Below are positions 37,900 through 43,348 of a stretch of DNA of 64,000 bases, piece by piece. Source of the stretch: a virus (Duplodnaviria; Caudoviricetes); the IMG/VR virus record IMGVR_UViG_3300021400_000034, positions 96,001-160,000 of that record. One strand, written 5' to 3'. Positions within the stretch are counted from its first letter, which is position 1. Each line of letters starts with the position of its first letter. The position numbers were made by a program, and so were the translations under genes. The notes below the pieces were generated by a model, which ran no database searches, was not told the origin of the DNA, and saw nothing but the letters and a program-made list of their open reading frames with translations.

Positions 37900-37960
37900 T
37901 AGATCCTAACAGCAATTCAAAGCACATTCCTGTTAAGAATCGAAAGCTAAAATGGATCTA
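37900..37960 (+). ncRNA. ACAGCAA cassette 1 (Asn GTT anticodon arm cargo)
   Basis: TAGATCC-ta-ACAGCAA...ATTC-CTGTTAA-GAAT...GGATCTA. Confidence 0.75.
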
Positions 37961-37967
37961 GTCATTT

Positions 37968-38040
37968 CAGTCTGTACGTCAATTGGTAGACGGATGGTTT
38001 TGGGAACCATTAGTTGAGTGTTCGAGTCACTCCAGACTGA
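37968..38040 (+). tRNA. tRNA-Pro(TGG)
   Basis: cloverleaf, loop TTTGGGA. Confidence 0.88.
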
Positions 38041-38161
38041 CTACTAAAAGAGGGACAAGAGGCTTCCACCTCCTGATCGAATTTCGTCGTTCGATCTCAC
38101 CTCTATACAATATGAGGATATGGAAGAATCCTCGTAAAAATAAAGATAACAGAGGCGAATT

Positions 38162-38944
38162 ATGATTTGCGAAAATTGCGGAAAAGAACATGACGGTTCT
38201 TACGGAAGTGGAAGATTCTGCTCTAGAGATTGCAGATTTTCTTATATAGGTAAACAGACTAACAAGAATGGTAAACATACTGGTCATCCTAATTATAATA
38301 CTGGAAGGACTCATTTTACTGCTTCACCAGATGGATGGAAATGCAAATGGTGTGATTTAGTCTTTAGAACTAGACGTGAACGTTCAAAACATTCAAATGA
38401 AGTTCATATACGCGATAAAAAGCATCCTTGGAATTATGGACTAACCAAAGATACTTCTAAAAAGGTAAAAGAGAGTACAGAATTAGTTAGGGAACTATAC
38501 AAAGCTGGAAAAATTCGTAAACCTGACAAAAAATTAGTATGGACGGAAGAGAGAAGACAAAGACAATCTGATAAGAAAAAGAAGTTTTATTCTGAACATC
38601 CAGAAGCACATCCAAATCGAAAATTAGCTAATAATCGTTCTAAGATGAGTTATCCAGAAAAGATAGTTTACGATTGGCTTACTGAGAAAAACATATCTTT
38701 TGAACATAATAAGCTGATAAGAACTAAAACTATTACGAGATATGTAGATTTTTATCTAAAAGACAATAATCTTATAATAGAAGTTGATGGAGAATTTTGG
38801 CACAATAGAAAGATTGAAAAAGATAAAAAGAAAGATTTTGAAGCCGAAGAAGCCGGTTATACTACTCTCCGAATAAAAGCAAAAGAGAGGATAATAGACC
38901 GATTAAATGACTTCTTCAGCTATCATATAAAAACGCTGGAATAG
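38162..38944 (+). CDS. putative homing endonuclease, Zn fingers plus Vsr/DUF559-like nuclease domain
   Basis: CENC...FCSRDC, PWNYGLTK, SYPE and VDF...IIEVDGEFWH motifs; AT-rich. Confidence 0.8.
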   Translation: MICENCGKEHDGSYGSGRFCSRDCRFSYIGKQTNKNGKHTGHPNYNTGRTHFTASPDGWKCKWCDLVFRTRRERSKHSNEVHIRDKKHPWNYGLTKDTSKKVKESTELVRELYKAGKIRKPDKKLVWTEERRQRQSDKKKKFYSEHPEAHPNRKLANNRSKMSYPEKIVYDWLTEKNISFEHNKLIRTKTITRYVDFYLKDNNLIIEVDGEFWHNRKIEKDKKKDFEAEEAGYTTLRIKAKERIIDRLNDFFSYHIKTLE

Positions 38945-39007
38945 CTCAGCTGGTAGAGCAGGGCTTTCGTAAAGCTCAGGTCGGCAGTTCGAGCCTGTCT
39001 TCCAGCG
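38935..39007 (+). tRNA. tRNA-Thr(CGT)
   Basis: loop TTCGTAA; overlaps the endonuclease stop codon. Confidence 0.88.
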
Positions 39008-39019
39008 CTACTGAAATTA

Positions 39020-39142
39020 GAGATGGTAACAGCAATTCTCTTTAGGCTGGTAACCTCGTGGTCGCGGGTTCGAGTCCCGTCTGGTCAGTCTCCGGATTGA
39101 TCGGTAGCTCAGTTGGTAGAGCACGTACAAGAAATCCATCTC
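39020..39142 (+). ncRNA. ACAGCAA cassette 2 (circularly permuted tRNA-Thr(GGT))
   Basis: GAGATGG/CCATCTC stem; 3' half 39044-39088 precedes 5' half 39098-39125. Confidence 0.85.
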
Positions 39143-39148
39143 GTCTTT

Positions 39149-39222
39149 GGTGCCGTGGTGAAGTGGCCTAACACATCGGTCTGTCTAACCGACATACGCG
39201 AGTTCGAATCTCGCCGGCATCG
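39149..39222 (+). tRNA. tRNA-Asp(GTC)
   Basis: loop CTGTCTA. Confidence 0.88.
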
Positions 39223-39225
39223 CTA

Positions 39226-39552
39226 TGATCTGAAGGAGAGACTCTAGCAATAGTGGAGTCGCTATCCTTGCAAAGGCCGCTACATTGAGCGTTACTTCGC
39301 CGTCAATTGGATCCAATGGAAGGACGCTTACTGGTTGATCAGCAGAAGTCAATTCGACGTCAACATGATGTCACCGACGAAGGCTGTGATGGAGTCAGGG
39401 GAGAGCATAGGCATAAGCATCCTGGCCCGGCCGCTGGAATCTCGAATTCATTTCAACCATCGAACGAGTCCGATGGTTCTATCGCGAAAAATAACGGCAT
39501 AAGCGCGAGACAGGTAAAGTCTTCGGTCACAAGACTATAAATGACCGGCCGT
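39226..39552 (+). ncRNA. candidate ~330-nt structured RNA
   Basis: 3' pseudoknot AGTCTT/AAGACT plus CGGTCA/TGACCG; no credible ORF. Confidence 0.45.
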
Positions 39553-39556
39553 ACAA

Positions 39557-39640
39557 GTCAGCTTCGGATAGCGGCAATTCCAGGAGACTGTAAATCTCCT
39601 GCCTTAACGGGCTTCGTAGGTTCGAGTCCTACAGCTGGCA
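39557..39640 (+). tRNA. tRNA-Tyr(GTA)
   Basis: loop CTGTAAA, long variable arm. Confidence 0.88.
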
Positions 39641-39647
39641 CTAATCC

Positions 39648-39822
39648 ATAGCGTCTGAATTCAAGTACGTATCTTCGTAGCTCAGTTGGTAGAGCGCAGG
39701 CCGAGAGGGCCTGAGGCGGTGGTTCGAGTCCATTCGTCGACCGTGAAGAGGGGGAGGCTTGGAGAGGATATCGGTTGAACTGTGAACTCGAGATAGCTTT
39801 TCACTCTTATCCTCAGCGCTAT
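39648..39822 (+). ncRNA. tRNA-like core (D, anticodon and T arms, no acceptor) within a larger closed RNA
   Basis: TAGCTCAGTTGGTAGAGC, CAGGCC/GGCCTG, GGTTCGAGTCC; ends ATAGCG/CGCTAT. Confidence 0.55.
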
Positions 39823-39825
39823 TAT

Positions 39826-39898
39826 GCTGGAATAGCTCAATTGGCAGAGCGTCGCCTTTGTAACGCGAGGGTTGGGAGTTCGATTCTCTCTTCCAGCG
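39826..39898 (+). tRNA. tRNA-Thr(TGT)
   Basis: loop TTTGTAA. Confidence 0.88.
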
Positions 39899-39959
39899 CT
39901 ATAATGAAAAGAATTGTAAAAGTTTTCTAAATCTTGGCTTTATCGATATAAATAGACAG

Positions 39960-42113: not shown

Positions 42114-42223
42114 AAGATAACAGACAGCAATCATCTACCCCAAAGCGGCTATGTTGGTGAAAGTCCAGCCGTCGATGTATGTCGGCGTCATCTAATCTAG
42201 GATTCCGCTCAAAATGTCATCTT
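42114..42223 (+). ncRNA. ACAGCAA cassette 7 (permuted cloverleaf opened at the anticodon loop)
   Basis: AAGATAACA/TGTCATCTT stem; order AGCGG, T-arm, acceptor hairpin, D-arm, CCGCT. Confidence 0.7.
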
Positions 42224-42229
42224 GACTAT

Positions 42230-42303
42230 ACTCCGTTGGTGTAATGGACTTAGCATACGGGCCTACGAAGCCCTTGATCCAAGTTCGAATCTTGGACGGA
42301 GTA
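42230..42303 (+). tRNA. tRNA-Arg(ACG)
   Basis: loop CTACGAA. Confidence 0.88.
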
Positions 42304-42315
42304 CTATTCCATGAT

Positions 42316-42436
42316 TAGATCCAAACTGCAACTCTCAAATCGTTACCATCAATCAACGGCCAAGCATCTCGGGATGCGCCTAGCTACATGGACTGGGAGA
42401 GGAGGGTTCGAATCCCCGGAAAATGAATCGGATCTA
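42316..42436 (+). ncRNA. ACTGCAA cassette 8 (T-arm plus hairpins)
   Basis: TAGATCC/GGATCTA stem; GGG-TTCGAAT-CCC. Confidence 0.7.
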
Positions 42437-42623
42437 GCTAAGCTCTCGATGCTGCTGACATTACGTCTAAATCGGAAAAACGCTATTCCATGTCTCGTGA
42501 AAGATATAAGCGAGAAGCAAGATAGTTAGCTCTGCATCGTCGATGCTAAGAGAGACGATGTCGTCATATATCCTCTGAACGGTCTTCGAGACAAGCGCTA
42601 AATCAACGCACAGGATAAATTAA

Positions 42624-42696
42624 GCTGACGTGCCGAAGTGGGAACGGAGGAGTCTGCAAAACTTTCTATGAGTGGGTTCGATTCCTACCGTCAGCT
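42624..42696 (+). tRNA. tRNA-Cys(GCA)
   Basis: loop CTGCAAA, U73. Confidence 0.87.
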
Positions 42697-42701
42697 CTAT
42701 A

Positions 42702-42811
42702 CAAGATGTCAACCGCAATTCCTTTCCAGGGTAGCTCTAGAGGTAGAGCACCGTCCTTGAGGCGGAAGAAGCTGGTTCGATCCCAGCCCCGGGAGCACAG
42801 ACGGCATCTTG
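42702..42811 (+). ncRNA. ACCGCAA cassette 9 (whole tRNA-like cloverleaf with shrunken anticodon loop)
   Basis: CAAGATGTC/GGCATCTTG stem; cloverleaf 42725-42795. Confidence 0.75.
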
Positions 42812-42822
42812 ACAATTTAAAT

Positions 42823-42906
42823 CGGGCTATTACCTTGGGCCGGACTCATAACCCGGGCCGTTAAAATCCAGGGCGGTGCGGAGAGGTTCGACTCCTCGTG
42901 GCCCGA
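42823..42906 (+). tRNA. atypical tRNA(CAT): D-arm missing, long variable arm
   Basis: CGGGCTA/TGGCCCG acceptor, loop CTCATAA, GGTTCGACTCC. Confidence 0.65.
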
Positions 42907-42909
42907 TAA

Positions 42910-42994
42910 GGAGGACTACACTAATTGGTAAGTGACCACGGTGCTAACGTGGCGCCTCGAAAGAGGCTTCCAGGTTCGAGCCCTGGGTCCTCCG
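42910..42994 (+). tRNA. tRNA-Ser(GCT)
   Basis: loop GTGCTAA, long variable arm. Confidence 0.88.
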
Positions 42995-43076
42995 CTAAAG
43001 ATCTTAGGAGTCGTTGCCCTAAGCAACGTGGAGCGCACGCGCCGGTACCGTCCAGAGCCGTCAAATCTGGACTTTT

Positions 43077-43167
43077 GGAAGTGTGCCAGAGTCTGGCTTA
43101 TCGGACCGGTCTTGAAAACCGAGGGCGGTACCCATTCCGCACGGGGGTTCGAATCCCTCCACTTCCT
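43077..43167 (+). tRNA. tRNA-Ser(TGA)
   Basis: loop CTTGAAA, long variable arm. Confidence 0.9.
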
Positions 43168-43172
43168 CTATC

Positions 43173-43243
43173 GCGTCCTTGATGTAGTGGTAGCACTTCT
43201 CATTGCCTGTGAGAAAGCGCCAGTTCGAATCTGGCAGGACGCT
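43173..43243 (+). tRNA. tRNA-Gly(GCC)
   Basis: loop TTGCCTG, U73. Confidence 0.87.
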
Positions 43244-43266
43244 TACTTTTCTATATTTAAAATACA

Positions 43267-43348
43267 GAGATAGACACAGCAATCCTTTTGGATAACGTAA
43301 TGATCTGCAAAATCAAAGCTAGACGGTCCAAATCCGTCAATCTATCTC
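43267..43348 (+). ncRNA. ACAGCAA cassette 10 (Cys GCA anticodon arm plus T-arm)
   Basis: GAGATAGA/TCTATCTC stem; TGAT-CTGCAAA-ATCA; GACGG-TCCAAAT-CCGTC. Confidence 0.78.

What the first reader, a model, noticed from the sequence alone, without database searches (positions are those of the whole stretch)
37900..43348. Minimal cassettes displaying isolated anticodon stem-loops
Seen: cassette 1 holds ATTC-CTGTTAA-GAAT (Asn GTT), cassette 5 TCCGA-TTGGTAA-TCAGA (Thr GGT), cassette 10 TGAT-CTGCAAA-ATCA (Cys GCA, plus a T-arm) and cassette 6 TTCTT-TTTGGTT-AAGAA (TGG centre, non-canonical position 37). The first three have canonical Y-U-NNN-A-A loops. They cannot be charged. Inference: they could be decoys for anticodon nucleases or modification enzymes, or donors for tRNA repair.
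Basis: partly seen in the sequence, partly recalled or inferred. Interest (0 to 1): 0.75.

Follow-up and report, generated by a model that had tools for sequence, protein, structure and literature searches.

The report
Phage anticodon-arm mimic small RNAs
Four tiny RNA genes wedged between this giant rumen phage's tRNA genes each hold out a look-alike of one tRNA's anticodon arm on a shared "handle"; the same design recurs about ten times above chance in phages that encode a Ro60-like ring protein, so it is a maintained, apparently undescribed tRNA mimic, probably bait for enzymes that read or cut anticodon loops.

Summary
All four hairpins are at the stated places. Within the window they already beat shuffles: 3 of 6 minimal cargos have a canonical loop (P=0.014), and two loops are identical to the phage's own tRNA-Asn and tRNA-Cys loops (P=0.001).

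The decisive test is family-wide. I took 80 phage loci around homologues of the phage's DUF2828 protein, whose model matches Ro60 in the PDB. They gave 122 non-redundant minimal "handle" RNAs. Of these, 36 carry a hairpin of 5 bp or more with a 7-nt YU-NNN-R-N loop, against 3.7±1.7 in shuffles. Only 7-nt loops are enriched.

Recurrent anticodons are Lys UUU (11), Pro UGG (6), Cys GCA (4), Asn GUU (4) and Ser UGA (4). Three of the window's four fall in these classes.

These are therefore maintained anticodon-arm mimics on a Y-RNA-like handle, and they cannot be charged. In this phage, RNA end-healing and sealing genes lie next to the Ro60-like gene.

The decoy or bait role is inferred, not shown. 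Cassette 6 is the weakest case.

The scan had already noted this handle family on other DNA (at least 44 genomes). I found no paper describing it.

The parts
37900..37960 (+). Cassette 1: a 61-nt handle RNA. Closing stem TAGATCC/GGATCTA, then ACAGCAA at 37909-37915. It starts 3 nt (CTA) after the discriminator of tRNA-Ala.
37921..37948 (+). c1 anticodon-arm mimic (Asn GUU). Helper helix AGC/GCT (37921-23 / 37946-48), spacer A 37924, stem (C)ATTC/GAAT(C) 37925-29 / 37937-41, loop CTGTTAA 37930-36, and a 4-nt bulge GAAA.
   Evidence: (loop identical to the phage tRNA-Asn loop)
41726..41793 (+). Cassette 5: a 68-nt handle RNA. Closing stem AAGATCC/GGATCTT, then ACTGCAA at 41735-41741. It is a paralogue of c1 on the same handle. 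The G002 orthologue differs at 1 of 68 positions.
41750..41779 (+). c5 anticodon-arm mimic (Thr GGU). Helper helix TAAC/GTTA, spacer A 41754, stem TCCGA/TCAGA (41755-59 / 41767-71, with a C.A mismatch), loop TTGGTAA 41760-66, and a bulge CTAC.
   Evidence: pair probability 0.72-0.80
41883..41938 (+). Cassette 6: a 56-nt handle RNA. Closing stem GAGGTTCTT/AGGAATCTC with two G.U pairs, then ACAGCAA at 41892-41898. It gives a sub-threshold match to Rfam Dicty Class I RNA. The G002 orthologue differs at 4 of 56 positions, with the hairpin unchanged.
41909..41925 (+). c6 hairpin TTCTT-TTTGGTT-AAGAA. It is Pro-UGG-like but has U instead of G at position 37. It has no helper helix and is not favoured by folding. 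It is the weakest of the four.
   Evidence: (family loops TTTGGGN x6)
43267..43348 (+). Cassette 10: an 82-nt handle RNA. Closing stem GAGATAGA/TCTATCTC, then ACAGCAA at 43276-43282. The interior is a small cloverleaf-like set of three hairpins.
43301..43338 (+). c10 anticodon-arm mimic (Cys GCA): TGAT-CTGCAAA-ATCA at 43301-43315. It is followed by a T-arm-like GACGG-TCCAAAT-CCGTC at 43322-43338.
   Evidence: loop identical to the phage tRNA-Cys loop; pair probability about 0.7
39043..39055 (+). Context. In the larger cassette 2 (39020-39142, a rotated tRNA-like RNA) the first module after the handle is also an anticodon arm, AGG-CTGGTAA-CCT (Thr GGU).
44513..44529 (+). Context. Cassette 14 (44496-44624) begins, 1 nt after ACAGCAG, with ACGGT-CTGTAAA-ACCGT (Tyr GUA). 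The anticodon arm is therefore the handle-proximal module of the large cargos too.

Best explanation
c1, c5, c10 and probably c6 are genes for 56-82-nt non-coding RNAs of a Y-RNA-like family.

Handle. The two ends pair into a 7-9-bp clamp, followed by single-stranded ACAGCAA. This 'handle' is inferred to be the docking site for the phage's Ro60-like ring protein (DUF2828/DUF7788).

Variable module. In these minimal members it is reduced to an imitation of one tRNA's anticodon arm. It has a 4-5-bp stem and a 7-nt loop with C/U32, U33, a real anticodon, R37 and A38. It usually sits on a short helper helix, with a one-base A spacer on the 5' side and a 3-4-nt bulge on the 3' side.

Production. 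The RNAs are transcribed inside the polycistronic tRNA array. They are inferred to be released by the same enzymes that trim the flanking tRNAs.

Function. They have no acceptor end, so they cannot be charged or used in decoding. Most likely they present a specific anticodon loop (Asn GUU, Thr GGU, Cys GCA, Pro-UGG-like) to proteins that recognise anticodon loops. The most probable such proteins are host tRNA-cleaving defence or toxin nucleases. The RNA would act as competing bait, held on or protected by the Ro60-like particle. In this phage that particle is encoded beside RNA end-healing and sealing enzymes.

Status of each step.
- Shown: the mimicry, its selection, and the genomic link to the Ro60-like gene.
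- Inferred: binding to the protein, processing, and the bait function.

The confidence given is for the whole statement. Taken separately, I put 'maintained anticodon-arm mimics on a Y-RNA-like handle' at about 0.85 and the specific bait-for-nucleases role at about 0.35-0.4.
For: (1) Family membership. Fourteen units in the array and a 15th at genome 62739-62791 share a covarying clamp plus ACNGCAA. The 15th lies directly upstream of the DUF2828/DUF7788 gene.

(2) The partner is Ro60-like. The top 13 PDB matches of the model are all Ro60/TROVE structures over the full length. The alignment keeps a DGSGSM MIDAS-type motif.

(3) The link is general. In 80 IMG/VR loci there are 294 handle candidates on the gene strand against 71 on the other strand. 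They occur in 77 of 80 loci, and 165 start within 2 kb upstream of the gene.

(4) The structure is at RNA level. 148 of 245 clamps contain G.U pairs. c6 has two, and one becomes A-U in G002.

(5) The anticodon-arm mimicry is selected.
- 36 observed against 3.7 expected; only 7-nt loops are enriched; the modal stem is 5 bp.
- The loop composition is tRNA-like.
- Position 34 is U or G in 39 of 43.
- Identical loops sit on different, compensated stems; for example there are 10 different stems under CTTTTAA.
- The helper helix is above control: 24 of 35 against 16.3, with a maximum of 23 in 500 controls. The spacer is A in 14 of 15.

(6) The window's anticodons fall in recurrent classes: GUU P=0.002, GCA P=9e-5, UGG P=5e-5.

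(7) Conservation. c5 and c6 are 98% and 93% identical in G002, while neighbouring pieces of the array are 69-94% identical.

(8) Conflict context.
- Metallophos phosphoesterase, AAA_33 kinase and an Rnl1-type ligase lie just upstream of the Ro60-like gene.
- There is a second RNA ligase and a CCA-adding enzyme.
- PrrC reads cues in the anticodon stem-loop and cleaves bare stem-loop analogues (PMC1950546).
- AriB recognises the anticodon stem-loop of tRNA-Lys, and also targets Thr UGU and Asn GUU without needing modifications (PMC11464382; 10.1101/2025.02.04.636281).
Against: - No direct evidence shows that the RNAs are made, where their ends lie, or that they bind the protein. RNA-library contigs cover all four cassettes, but they cannot prove transcription.
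- The stems are weak. The hairpin is not in the predicted ensemble of c6, and in c1 it appears only when the conserved motif is kept unpaired.
- c6 lacks R37 and the helper helix.
- Only about 30-37% of minimal handle RNAs show a canonical anticodon arm. The family therefore has other modules.
- c1 and c10 have no orthologue in the closest complete relative, so they are dispensable or fast-turning.
- Pro UGG, Cys GCA and Ser UGA are not classical phage-defence nuclease targets.
- Some nucleases need modified bases, which a mimic may lack.
- This phage has no Lys-UUU mimic, although that is the commonest class elsewhere.
Confidence: 0.55

Rival explanations
1. Sentinel or gate. The anticodon-arm module is meant to be cut. 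A host anticodon nuclease would cleave the mimic on the particle. That would open the Y-like RNA 'gate' of the Ro60-like ring, or release a signal, and so switch on capture and repair of broken tRNAs.
For: - In Ro60 biology, Y RNAs gate the ring (PMC4201824 introduction).
- The Salmonella rsr-yrlBA-rtcBA operon is switched on by tRNA fragments (PMC7790460 abstract).
- The end-healing and sealing genes lie next to the Ro60-like gene here.
- One mimic per tRNA species fits one sensor per nuclease.
Against: - This is pure inference; nothing in the sequence distinguishes it from a passive decoy.
- 5 of 15 near-complete genomes with the system encode no RNA ligase.
Confidence: 0.15
2. Adaptor for translation or tRNA-maturation factors. 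The arm would tether the Ro60-like particle to tRNA-modifying enzymes, aminoacyl-tRNA synthetase anticodon-binding domains, or the ribosomal decoding site at a hungry codon. Defence nucleases would not be the target.
For: - YrlA is a substrate of tRNA-modifying enzymes (PMC4201824).
- The recurrent classes span t6A37-type (Lys, Asn, Ser GCU, Thr), i6A37-type (Cys, Ser UGA, Phe) and m1G37-type (Pro) loops (modification classes from general knowledge). This is broader than any one nuclease.
Against: - There is no candidate partner gene.
- The strong skew to Lys UUU (11 of 43, P=3e-5) is not expected for a general modification sponge.
Confidence: 0.12
3. Vestige. The minimal cassettes are decayed remnants of larger tRNA-like cargos such as c2, c9, c11 and c14. 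The anticodon arm would simply be the last part to erode and would have no role of its own.
For: - In the large cargos the anticodon arm is the handle-proximal module.
- c11 carries a disabled loop.
- c13 is an empty handle.
- c1 and c10 are absent from G002.
Against: - Loops are conserved across distant phages while stems differ and compensate.
- The stem length is fixed at 5 bp, and the spacer and bulge geometry is fixed.
- A34 is avoided.
- c5 and c6 are more conserved than their surroundings.
Confidence: 0.08
4. Donor or template for tRNA repair. The mimic would supply a replacement anticodon loop, or act as a splint, for ligases mending cut tRNAs.
For: An Rnl1-type ligase, a kinase and a phosphoesterase lie beside the Ro60-like gene.
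Against: - No known ligase mechanism swaps in a donor loop.
- The mimic stems are unrelated to those of the phage's tRNAs, so they cannot splint them.
- Many genomes with the system lack ligases.
Confidence: 0.03
5. Chance hairpins in AT-rich spacer DNA.
For: The stems are only 4-5 bp and AU-rich.
Against: Shuffle tests reject it in the window (P=0.014 and 0.001) and in the family (36 against 3.7).
Confidence: 0.02

Closest known systems
YrlA-type bacterial and mycobacteriophage Y RNAs with Ro60/Rsr (Rfam RF02553; Chen et al. 2014, PMC4201824)
   Same: - A small RNA whose 5' and 3' ends form a protein-binding stem.
- A variable module that imitates part of a tRNA.
- It is encoded beside a Ro60-type ring protein.
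- It is linked to RNA repair genes.
   Different: - YrlA imitates the T arm, acceptor and D arm, and has no anticodon loop. These RNAs imitate only the anticodon arm.
- The conserved handle is ACAGCAA, not the YrlA stem.
- None of the four cassettes matches RF02553. Only the larger c2 does, at 38 bits against a gathering score of 69.
- The protein is DUF2828/DUF7788 and does not match Pfam TROVE.
Deinococcus radiodurans Yrn1 (PMC4201824)
   Same: It can be drawn with a possible 'anticodon arm' with a 5-bp stem on a Ro60-bound RNA.
   Different: - Its loop has 6 nt, not 7, and no specific anticodon identity is claimed.
- It also carries T- and D-like parts.
Thermus phage phiLo Ro60 with Yrl1/Yrl2 (PMC12135203; PDB 9KOP, 9L5Y)
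   Same: - A phage-encoded Ro60-type ring with small RNAs encoded just upstream of its gene.
- It gives the best structural matches to this phage's protein.
- It is proposed to hijack a host enzyme.
   Different: - Yrl RNAs have the canonical stem-bulge with a CGAA motif and no tRNA-like loop.
- Their proposed partner is PNPase.
Class I RNAs of dictyostelid amoebae (Rfam RF01414; Kjellin et al. 2021, PMC7919456)
   Same: - Length is 42-65 nt.
- A short covarying terminal stem starts with G.
- It is followed by a conserved single-stranded motif, which the Rfam consensus gives as CUUACAGCAA, and then a variable rest.
- c6 reads GAGGUU-CUUACAGCAA.
   Different: - c6 scores 19.1 bits against a gathering score of 41.5, so it is not a member by Rfam's test.
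- Class I RNAs are eukaryotic, and no anticodon-like loop or Ro60-like partner is described for them.
Phage tRNA countermeasures to tRNA-cutting defences (T5 tRNA-Lys/Thr/Asn against PARIS AriB; T4 Pnkp/Rnl1 against PrrC)
   Same: - The battlefield is the same: anticodon stem-loops of Lys UUU, Asn GUU and Thr.
- This phage also carries an Rnl1-type ligase, a kinase and a phosphoesterase.
   Different: - Known countermeasures are full, chargeable, nuclease-resistant tRNAs, or repair enzymes.
- Non-chargeable stem-loop mimics on a protein handle are not among those I found described.

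Membership tests
tRNA (RF00005 / ARAGORN) | Cloverleaf with acceptor stem, D, anticodon and T arms; scores above 29 bits | tested here: not met
   Neither ARAGORN nor Rfam gives a hit inside c1, c5, c6 or c10. There is no acceptor stem.
Anticodon stem-loop (as a structural mimic) | 5-bp stem closing a 7-nt loop | tested here: met
   All four loops are 7 nt. The stem is 5 bp in c6, 5 positions with one mismatch in c5 and c1, and 4 bp in c10. In the family, 32 of 45 stems are exactly 5 bp.
Anticodon stem-loop (as a structural mimic) | Y32, U33, purine 37 (A38 common), with N34 being U or G | tested here: met
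   c1 is CTGTTAA, c5 is TTGGTAA and c10 is CTGCAAA; all three are canonical. c6 (TTTGGTT) fails at position 37.
YrlA (RF02553) | Covariance-model score at or above 69 bits; T-arm, closed acceptor and D-arm domain | tested here: not met
   None of the four cassettes gives a hit. c2 scores 38.2 bits, on the tRNA-like part only.
Y RNA in the broad sense (Ro60 partner) | Terminal stem formed by the 5' and 3' ends plus a variable internal module; gene next to a Ro60 gene | tested here: met
   The clamps covary. A 15th copy lies directly upstream of the Ro60-like gene. Candidates cluster strand-specifically in 77 of 80 loci.
Y RNA in the broad sense (Ro60 partner) | Physical binding to the Ro60-type protein | not testable with these tools
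   This needs a pull-down or EMSA.
Y RNA in the broad sense (Ro60 partner) | Canonical Ro60-binding helix sequence (bulged helix; CGAA-type motif) | tested here: not met
   The handle is a clamp plus ACAGCAA. The YrlA consensus stem shown is unrelated, and the CGAA motif (PMC12135203) is absent.
Ro60/TROVE protein (for the partner) | HEAT-repeat ring plus vWA domain with MIDAS | tested here: met
   The top 13 Foldseek matches are all Ro60, with about 500-590 aligned columns and TM about 0.35-0.5. The DGSGSM motif is conserved. Pfam TROVE itself is not matched.
Dicty Class I RNA (RF01414) | Score at or above 41.5 bits; 6-bp stem followed by the 11-nt motif | tested here: not met
   c6 scores 19.1 bits, E=0.29 in a 231-nt search. 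The motif CUUACAGCAA and the 5' G are shared.
ACAGCAA-handle RNAs (the scan's working family; I found no published description) | A 6-10-bp covarying clamp, 0-3 nt, ACNGCAA, variable cargo, on the strand of and near a DUF2828 gene or in a tRNA array | tested here: met
   All four cassettes meet it.

The most novel reading that the evidence does not exclude
Phages carry sets of interchangeable 'anticodon-arm cartridges' on a common Ro60-type handle. Each cartridge would be tuned to one host tRNA-cutting or tRNA-modifying defence enzyme. The particle would trap that enzyme, sense it, or soak up its cuts, with the decoy re-sealed by the neighbouring healing and sealing enzymes. This would be an RNA-based, modular counter-defence against anticodon nucleases. 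The shared ACAGCAA handle would also link it to the unexplained Class I RNAs of social amoebae.
Probability: 0.3. Interest if true: 0.9.

Novelty: new variant of a known kind. Interest (0 to 1): 0.8.

Why it matters
Cutting tRNA anticodon loops is now recognised as a common bacterial defence. The known phage answers are resistant tRNAs and repair enzymes.

A widespread class of non-chargeable RNAs that copy only the anticodon arm of particular tRNAs would be a third kind of answer. These RNAs are tied to a Ro60-like ring protein with thousands of homologues.

It would also give Ro60/Y-RNA biology a case where the variable module has a readable specificity, namely the anticodon.

The anticodon table (Lys UUU, Pro UGG, Cys GCA, Asn GUU, Ser UGA) predicts directly which host tRNAs are under attack in rumen and gut bacteria. 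That can be tested with simple cleavage and competition assays.

Tried and rejected
- A collection scan with AGAGAT-N-ACAGCAANTC gave only single, chance-like hits.
- Looking for relatives through three nearby proteins found none.
- Pfam TROVE and RtcB are absent from the genome. The Ro60 likeness therefore rests on fold.
- BLAST for orthologues of c1 and c10 in 34 related records found nothing useful.
- Fetching the tRNA arrays of 12 other DUF2828 phages added almost no new handle RNAs. There they lie by the gene, not in the arrays.
- Metatranscriptome contigs from four studies were laid on the stretch.
  - Contigs of run X4 cover c1, c5, c6 and c10.
  - One contig joins the end of c9 directly to c10.
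  - Contigs cannot show transcription, strand or ends, and DNA carry-over is possible. I do not count this as evidence.
- A formal 'enrichment of known nuclease targets' test was dropped. Published targets now cover too many tRNAs to be discriminating. I give a composition-aware test per anticodon instead.
- An integron attC site, a self-cleaving ribozyme or a DNA-level repeat were all considered for the cassette boundaries. I rejected them: Rfam gives no ribozyme hit, and the clamps covary, contain G.U pairs and are strand-specific.

Full report
**What is there.**
The window is part of a 243-kb phage genome with terminal repeats. A 9.3-kb array of 33 tRNA genes lies at 35497-44715.

Fourteen repeated units are scattered through the array. 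Each is closed by a 7-9-bp stem whose sequence differs between copies but stays complementary. The stem is followed within 0-2 nt by ACAGCAA or a close variant.
- c1: 37900-37960
- c5: 41726-41793
- c6: 41883-41938
- c10: 43267-43348

All four hairpins are exactly as described. Three qualifications apply. The c1 stem is 4 bp plus a C.C pair. The c5 stem has a central C.A mismatch. c6 has U at position 37. None of the four is called a tRNA by ARAGORN or Rfam.

c1, c5 and c6 start 3-6 nt after the discriminator base of the upstream tRNA. They would therefore be freed from the precursor by tRNA end-processing. This last step is inference.

**Is it more than chance?**
In this genome alone the answer is modestly yes.
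- Two loops, CTGTTAA and CTGCAAA, are identical to the anticodon loops of the phage's own tRNA-Asn and tRNA-Cys (P=0.001).

The decisive test needed relatives. I checked this and found one in the genome, about 33 kb upstream of the window. A 15th handle RNA of 53 nt lies in the gap directly before its likely start codon.

**The partner protein.**
- It does not match Pfam TROVE.
- An AlphaFold model (pLDDT 74) has Ro60 structures as its 13 best PDB matches, over the full length. These include the Thermus phage phiLo Ro60.
- The family keeps a MIDAS-type DGSGSM motif.
- It has more than 7000 homologues.

**The family-wide data set.**
I fetched 80 IMG/VR loci around homologues and scanned them with a clamp+ACNGCAR detector.
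- There are 294 candidates on the gene strand against 71 on the other strand.
- They occur in 77 of 80 loci.
- 165 start within 2 kb upstream of the gene.
- 148 of 245 clamps contain G.U pairs, so the structure is read at RNA level on that strand.

The 188 minimal members (cargo 15-70 nt) collapse to 122 non-redundant RNAs.
- Hairpins of 5 bp or more with a 7-nt YU-NNN-R-N loop occur in 36. Dinucleotide shuffles give 3.7±1.7, with a maximum of 9 in 300.
- With stems of 4 bp or more the figures are 45 against 9.0.
- Only 7-nt loops are enriched (61 against 29). Loops of 3-6 and 8-11 nt are at or below expectation.
- The stem is exactly 5 bp in 32 of 45.
- The arm sits a median 11 nt after ACAGCAA and 9 nt before the 3' clamp.
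- Loop composition is tRNA-like: C32 49%, U33 68%, R37 76%, A38 59%, against 11/35/55/39% in shuffles.
- Position 34 is U or G in 39 of 43, where the null gives A 33% of the time.
- The same loop rides on different, compensated stems. CTTTTAA, for example, sits on ten different stems.
- The arm usually stands on a 3-5-bp helper helix: 24 of 35 against 16.3 in controls, with a maximum of 23 in 500.
- The helper helix has a one-base spacer, A in 14 of 15, and a 3-4-nt bulge. c1 and c5 fit this plan exactly.

The criterion 'no more frequent than in shuffled controls' is therefore rejected.

**Anticodon table** (43 distinct RNAs; composition-aware null).

| Anticodon | Count | P |
|---|---|---|
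| Lys UUU | 11 | 3e-5 |
| Pro UGG | 6 | 5e-5 |
| Cys GCA | 4 | 9e-5 |
| Asn GUU | 4 | 0.002 |
| Ser UGA | 4 | 0.03 |
| Ser GCU | 2 | 0.016 |
| Phe GAA | 2 | not significant (0.48) |

The rest are singletons. The window's Asn, Cys and Pro-like arms belong to recurrent classes. Thr GGU occurs twice in this phage (c5, and the larger c2).

Several further family members are near-canonical variants. Examples are CCGTTAA, CATTTAA, 3-bp stems, and a 31-39 mismatch. The 30-37% figure is therefore a lower bound.

**Conservation.**
A 248-kb relative, G002, has an orthologous array. There, c5 differs at 1 of 68 positions and c6 at 4 of 56. One of the c6 changes turns a G.U clamp pair into A-U. Neighbouring stretches of the array are 69-94% identical. 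c1 and c10 have no orthologue there.

**Folding.**
The nearest-neighbour model supports the arm in c5 and c10 (pair probability 0.66-0.80). It supports the arm in c1 only when ACAGCAA plus 3 nt is held single-stranded, as it would be if protein-bound. It does not support the arm in c6. c6 is the least secure case. Against that, its hairpin is unchanged in G002, and TTTGGGN loops recur in the family.

**How it probably works.**
The architecture is that of a Y RNA: a terminal stem, a conserved protein-docking element and a variable module. It is encoded with a Ro60-type ring.

Known tRNA-like Y RNAs (YrlA) copy the T, acceptor and D parts and lack the anticodon loop (PMC4201824). These RNAs copy the opposite end.

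In this phage the Ro60-like gene is preceded by a calcineurin-type phosphoesterase, an AAA_33 P-loop kinase and an Rnl1-type RNA ligase. Together these are the end-healing and sealing activities that T4 uses to mend anticodon-loop cuts; this comparison is general knowledge and is echoed in PMC7824862. A second RNA ligase and a CCA-adding enzyme are also present.

Anticodon nucleases read the stem-loop itself.
- PrrC cleaves bare stem-loop analogues (PMC1950546).
- AriB recognises the tRNA-Lys stem-loop. It also targets Thr UGU and Asn GUU, and needs no base modification (PMC11464382; 10.1101/2025.02.04.636281).
- A secreted toxin modifies the tRNA-Thr(GGU) loop (PMC13617354, title and abstract).

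My best reading is therefore that the arms are bait for such enzymes, carried on the Ro60-like particle. This last step is inference.

The repair link is frequent but not obligatory. Of 15 near-complete genomes with the system, about 9 or 10 encode an Rnl1, Rnl2 or RtcB ligase and 5 encode none.

**Comparison with the known.**
I found no paper on DUF2828 function, on an ACAGCAA handle, or on anticodon-arm decoys in phages.

The nearest described systems are these:
- YrlA with Rsr.
- Yrn1 of Deinococcus, which has a possible anticodon arm with a 6-nt loop.
- phiLo Ro60 with Yrl RNAs (PMC12135203).
- For the handle only, the dictyostelid Class I RNAs. Their Rfam consensus reads stem + CUUACAGCAA. 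c6 matches it below threshold, at 19.1 against 41.5 bits (PMC7919456).

**Earlier notes of this scan.**
They had already reported the handle family and its Ro60-like partner in at least 44 genomes, and in one case arms like anticodon arms. I re-derived the points I use.

**Verdict.**
This is a new variant of the Y-RNA/tRNA-mimic theme with a readable specificity.

Noticed in passing
window 35656-35730 and 37341-37415; L147:7620-7685: The phage has two tRNA-Asn(GUU) genes. One has the universal U33 replaced by C (loop CCGTTAA); the other is canonical (CTGTTAA). The same CCGTTAA loop appears on handle RNAs of other phages. It may be a nuclease-evading loop variant.
   Followed up: partly
window 35497-44715; 22754-23932: In 24 of 33 tRNA genes the discriminator is followed by CTA instead of CCA. 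A CCA-adding enzyme (PolyA_pol head domain, E=1e-27) is encoded 12 kb upstream.
   Followed up: partly
G000:C1:58080-62680 (L235:2080-6678), outside the window: An RNA end-healing and sealing cluster lies directly upstream of handle RNA 15 and the Ro60-like gene. It comprises a Metallophos phosphoesterase, an AAA_33/KTI12-type P-loop kinase, an Rnl1-type RNA ligase and an unassigned 147-aa ORF. The adjacency is kept in relatives G002 and G003.
   Followed up: partly
G000:C1:62739-62791 (L235:6740-6792): The longest ORF of the DUF2828 gene starts inside handle RNA 15. The likely true start is the ATG about 40 nt downstream of the RNA's 3' end, behind AAGGAAG. This agrees with homologues that are 20 residues shorter.
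   Followed up: partly
window 44181-44214 inside 43845-44225: Cassette 13 is an 'empty' handle: a clamp GAGACTG/CGGTCTC around ACAGCAA plus 8 nt. It is nested at the 3' end of the 381-nt cassette 12, whose own clamp closes right after it.
   Followed up: no
L138-L217, minimal handle RNAs; window c1 and c5: The anticodon-arm mimics stand on a 3-5-bp helper helix, with a single A on the 5' side and a 3-4-nt bulge on the 3' side. This is reminiscent of tRNA position 26 and a short variable loop.
   Followed up: yes
window 38162-38944 and 39960-40589: Two ORFs sit inside the tRNA array. One has DUF559/Vsr-type endonuclease domains. The other has an N-terminus that reads like a GIY-YIG homing endonuclease; this is by eye and was not scanned.
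   Followed up: partly
window 42812 joined to 43265: A metatranscriptome contig of a related phage joins the end of cassette 9 directly to cassette 10, skipping the three tRNA genes between them (table 5). The cassettes and tRNAs therefore reshuffle as units.
   Followed up: no
window 41883-41900: c6 reads GAGGUU-CUUACAGCAAUU. This is the same stem-plus-motif signature as the Rfam consensus of dictyostelid Class I RNAs (19.1 bits, below threshold).
   Followed up: partly
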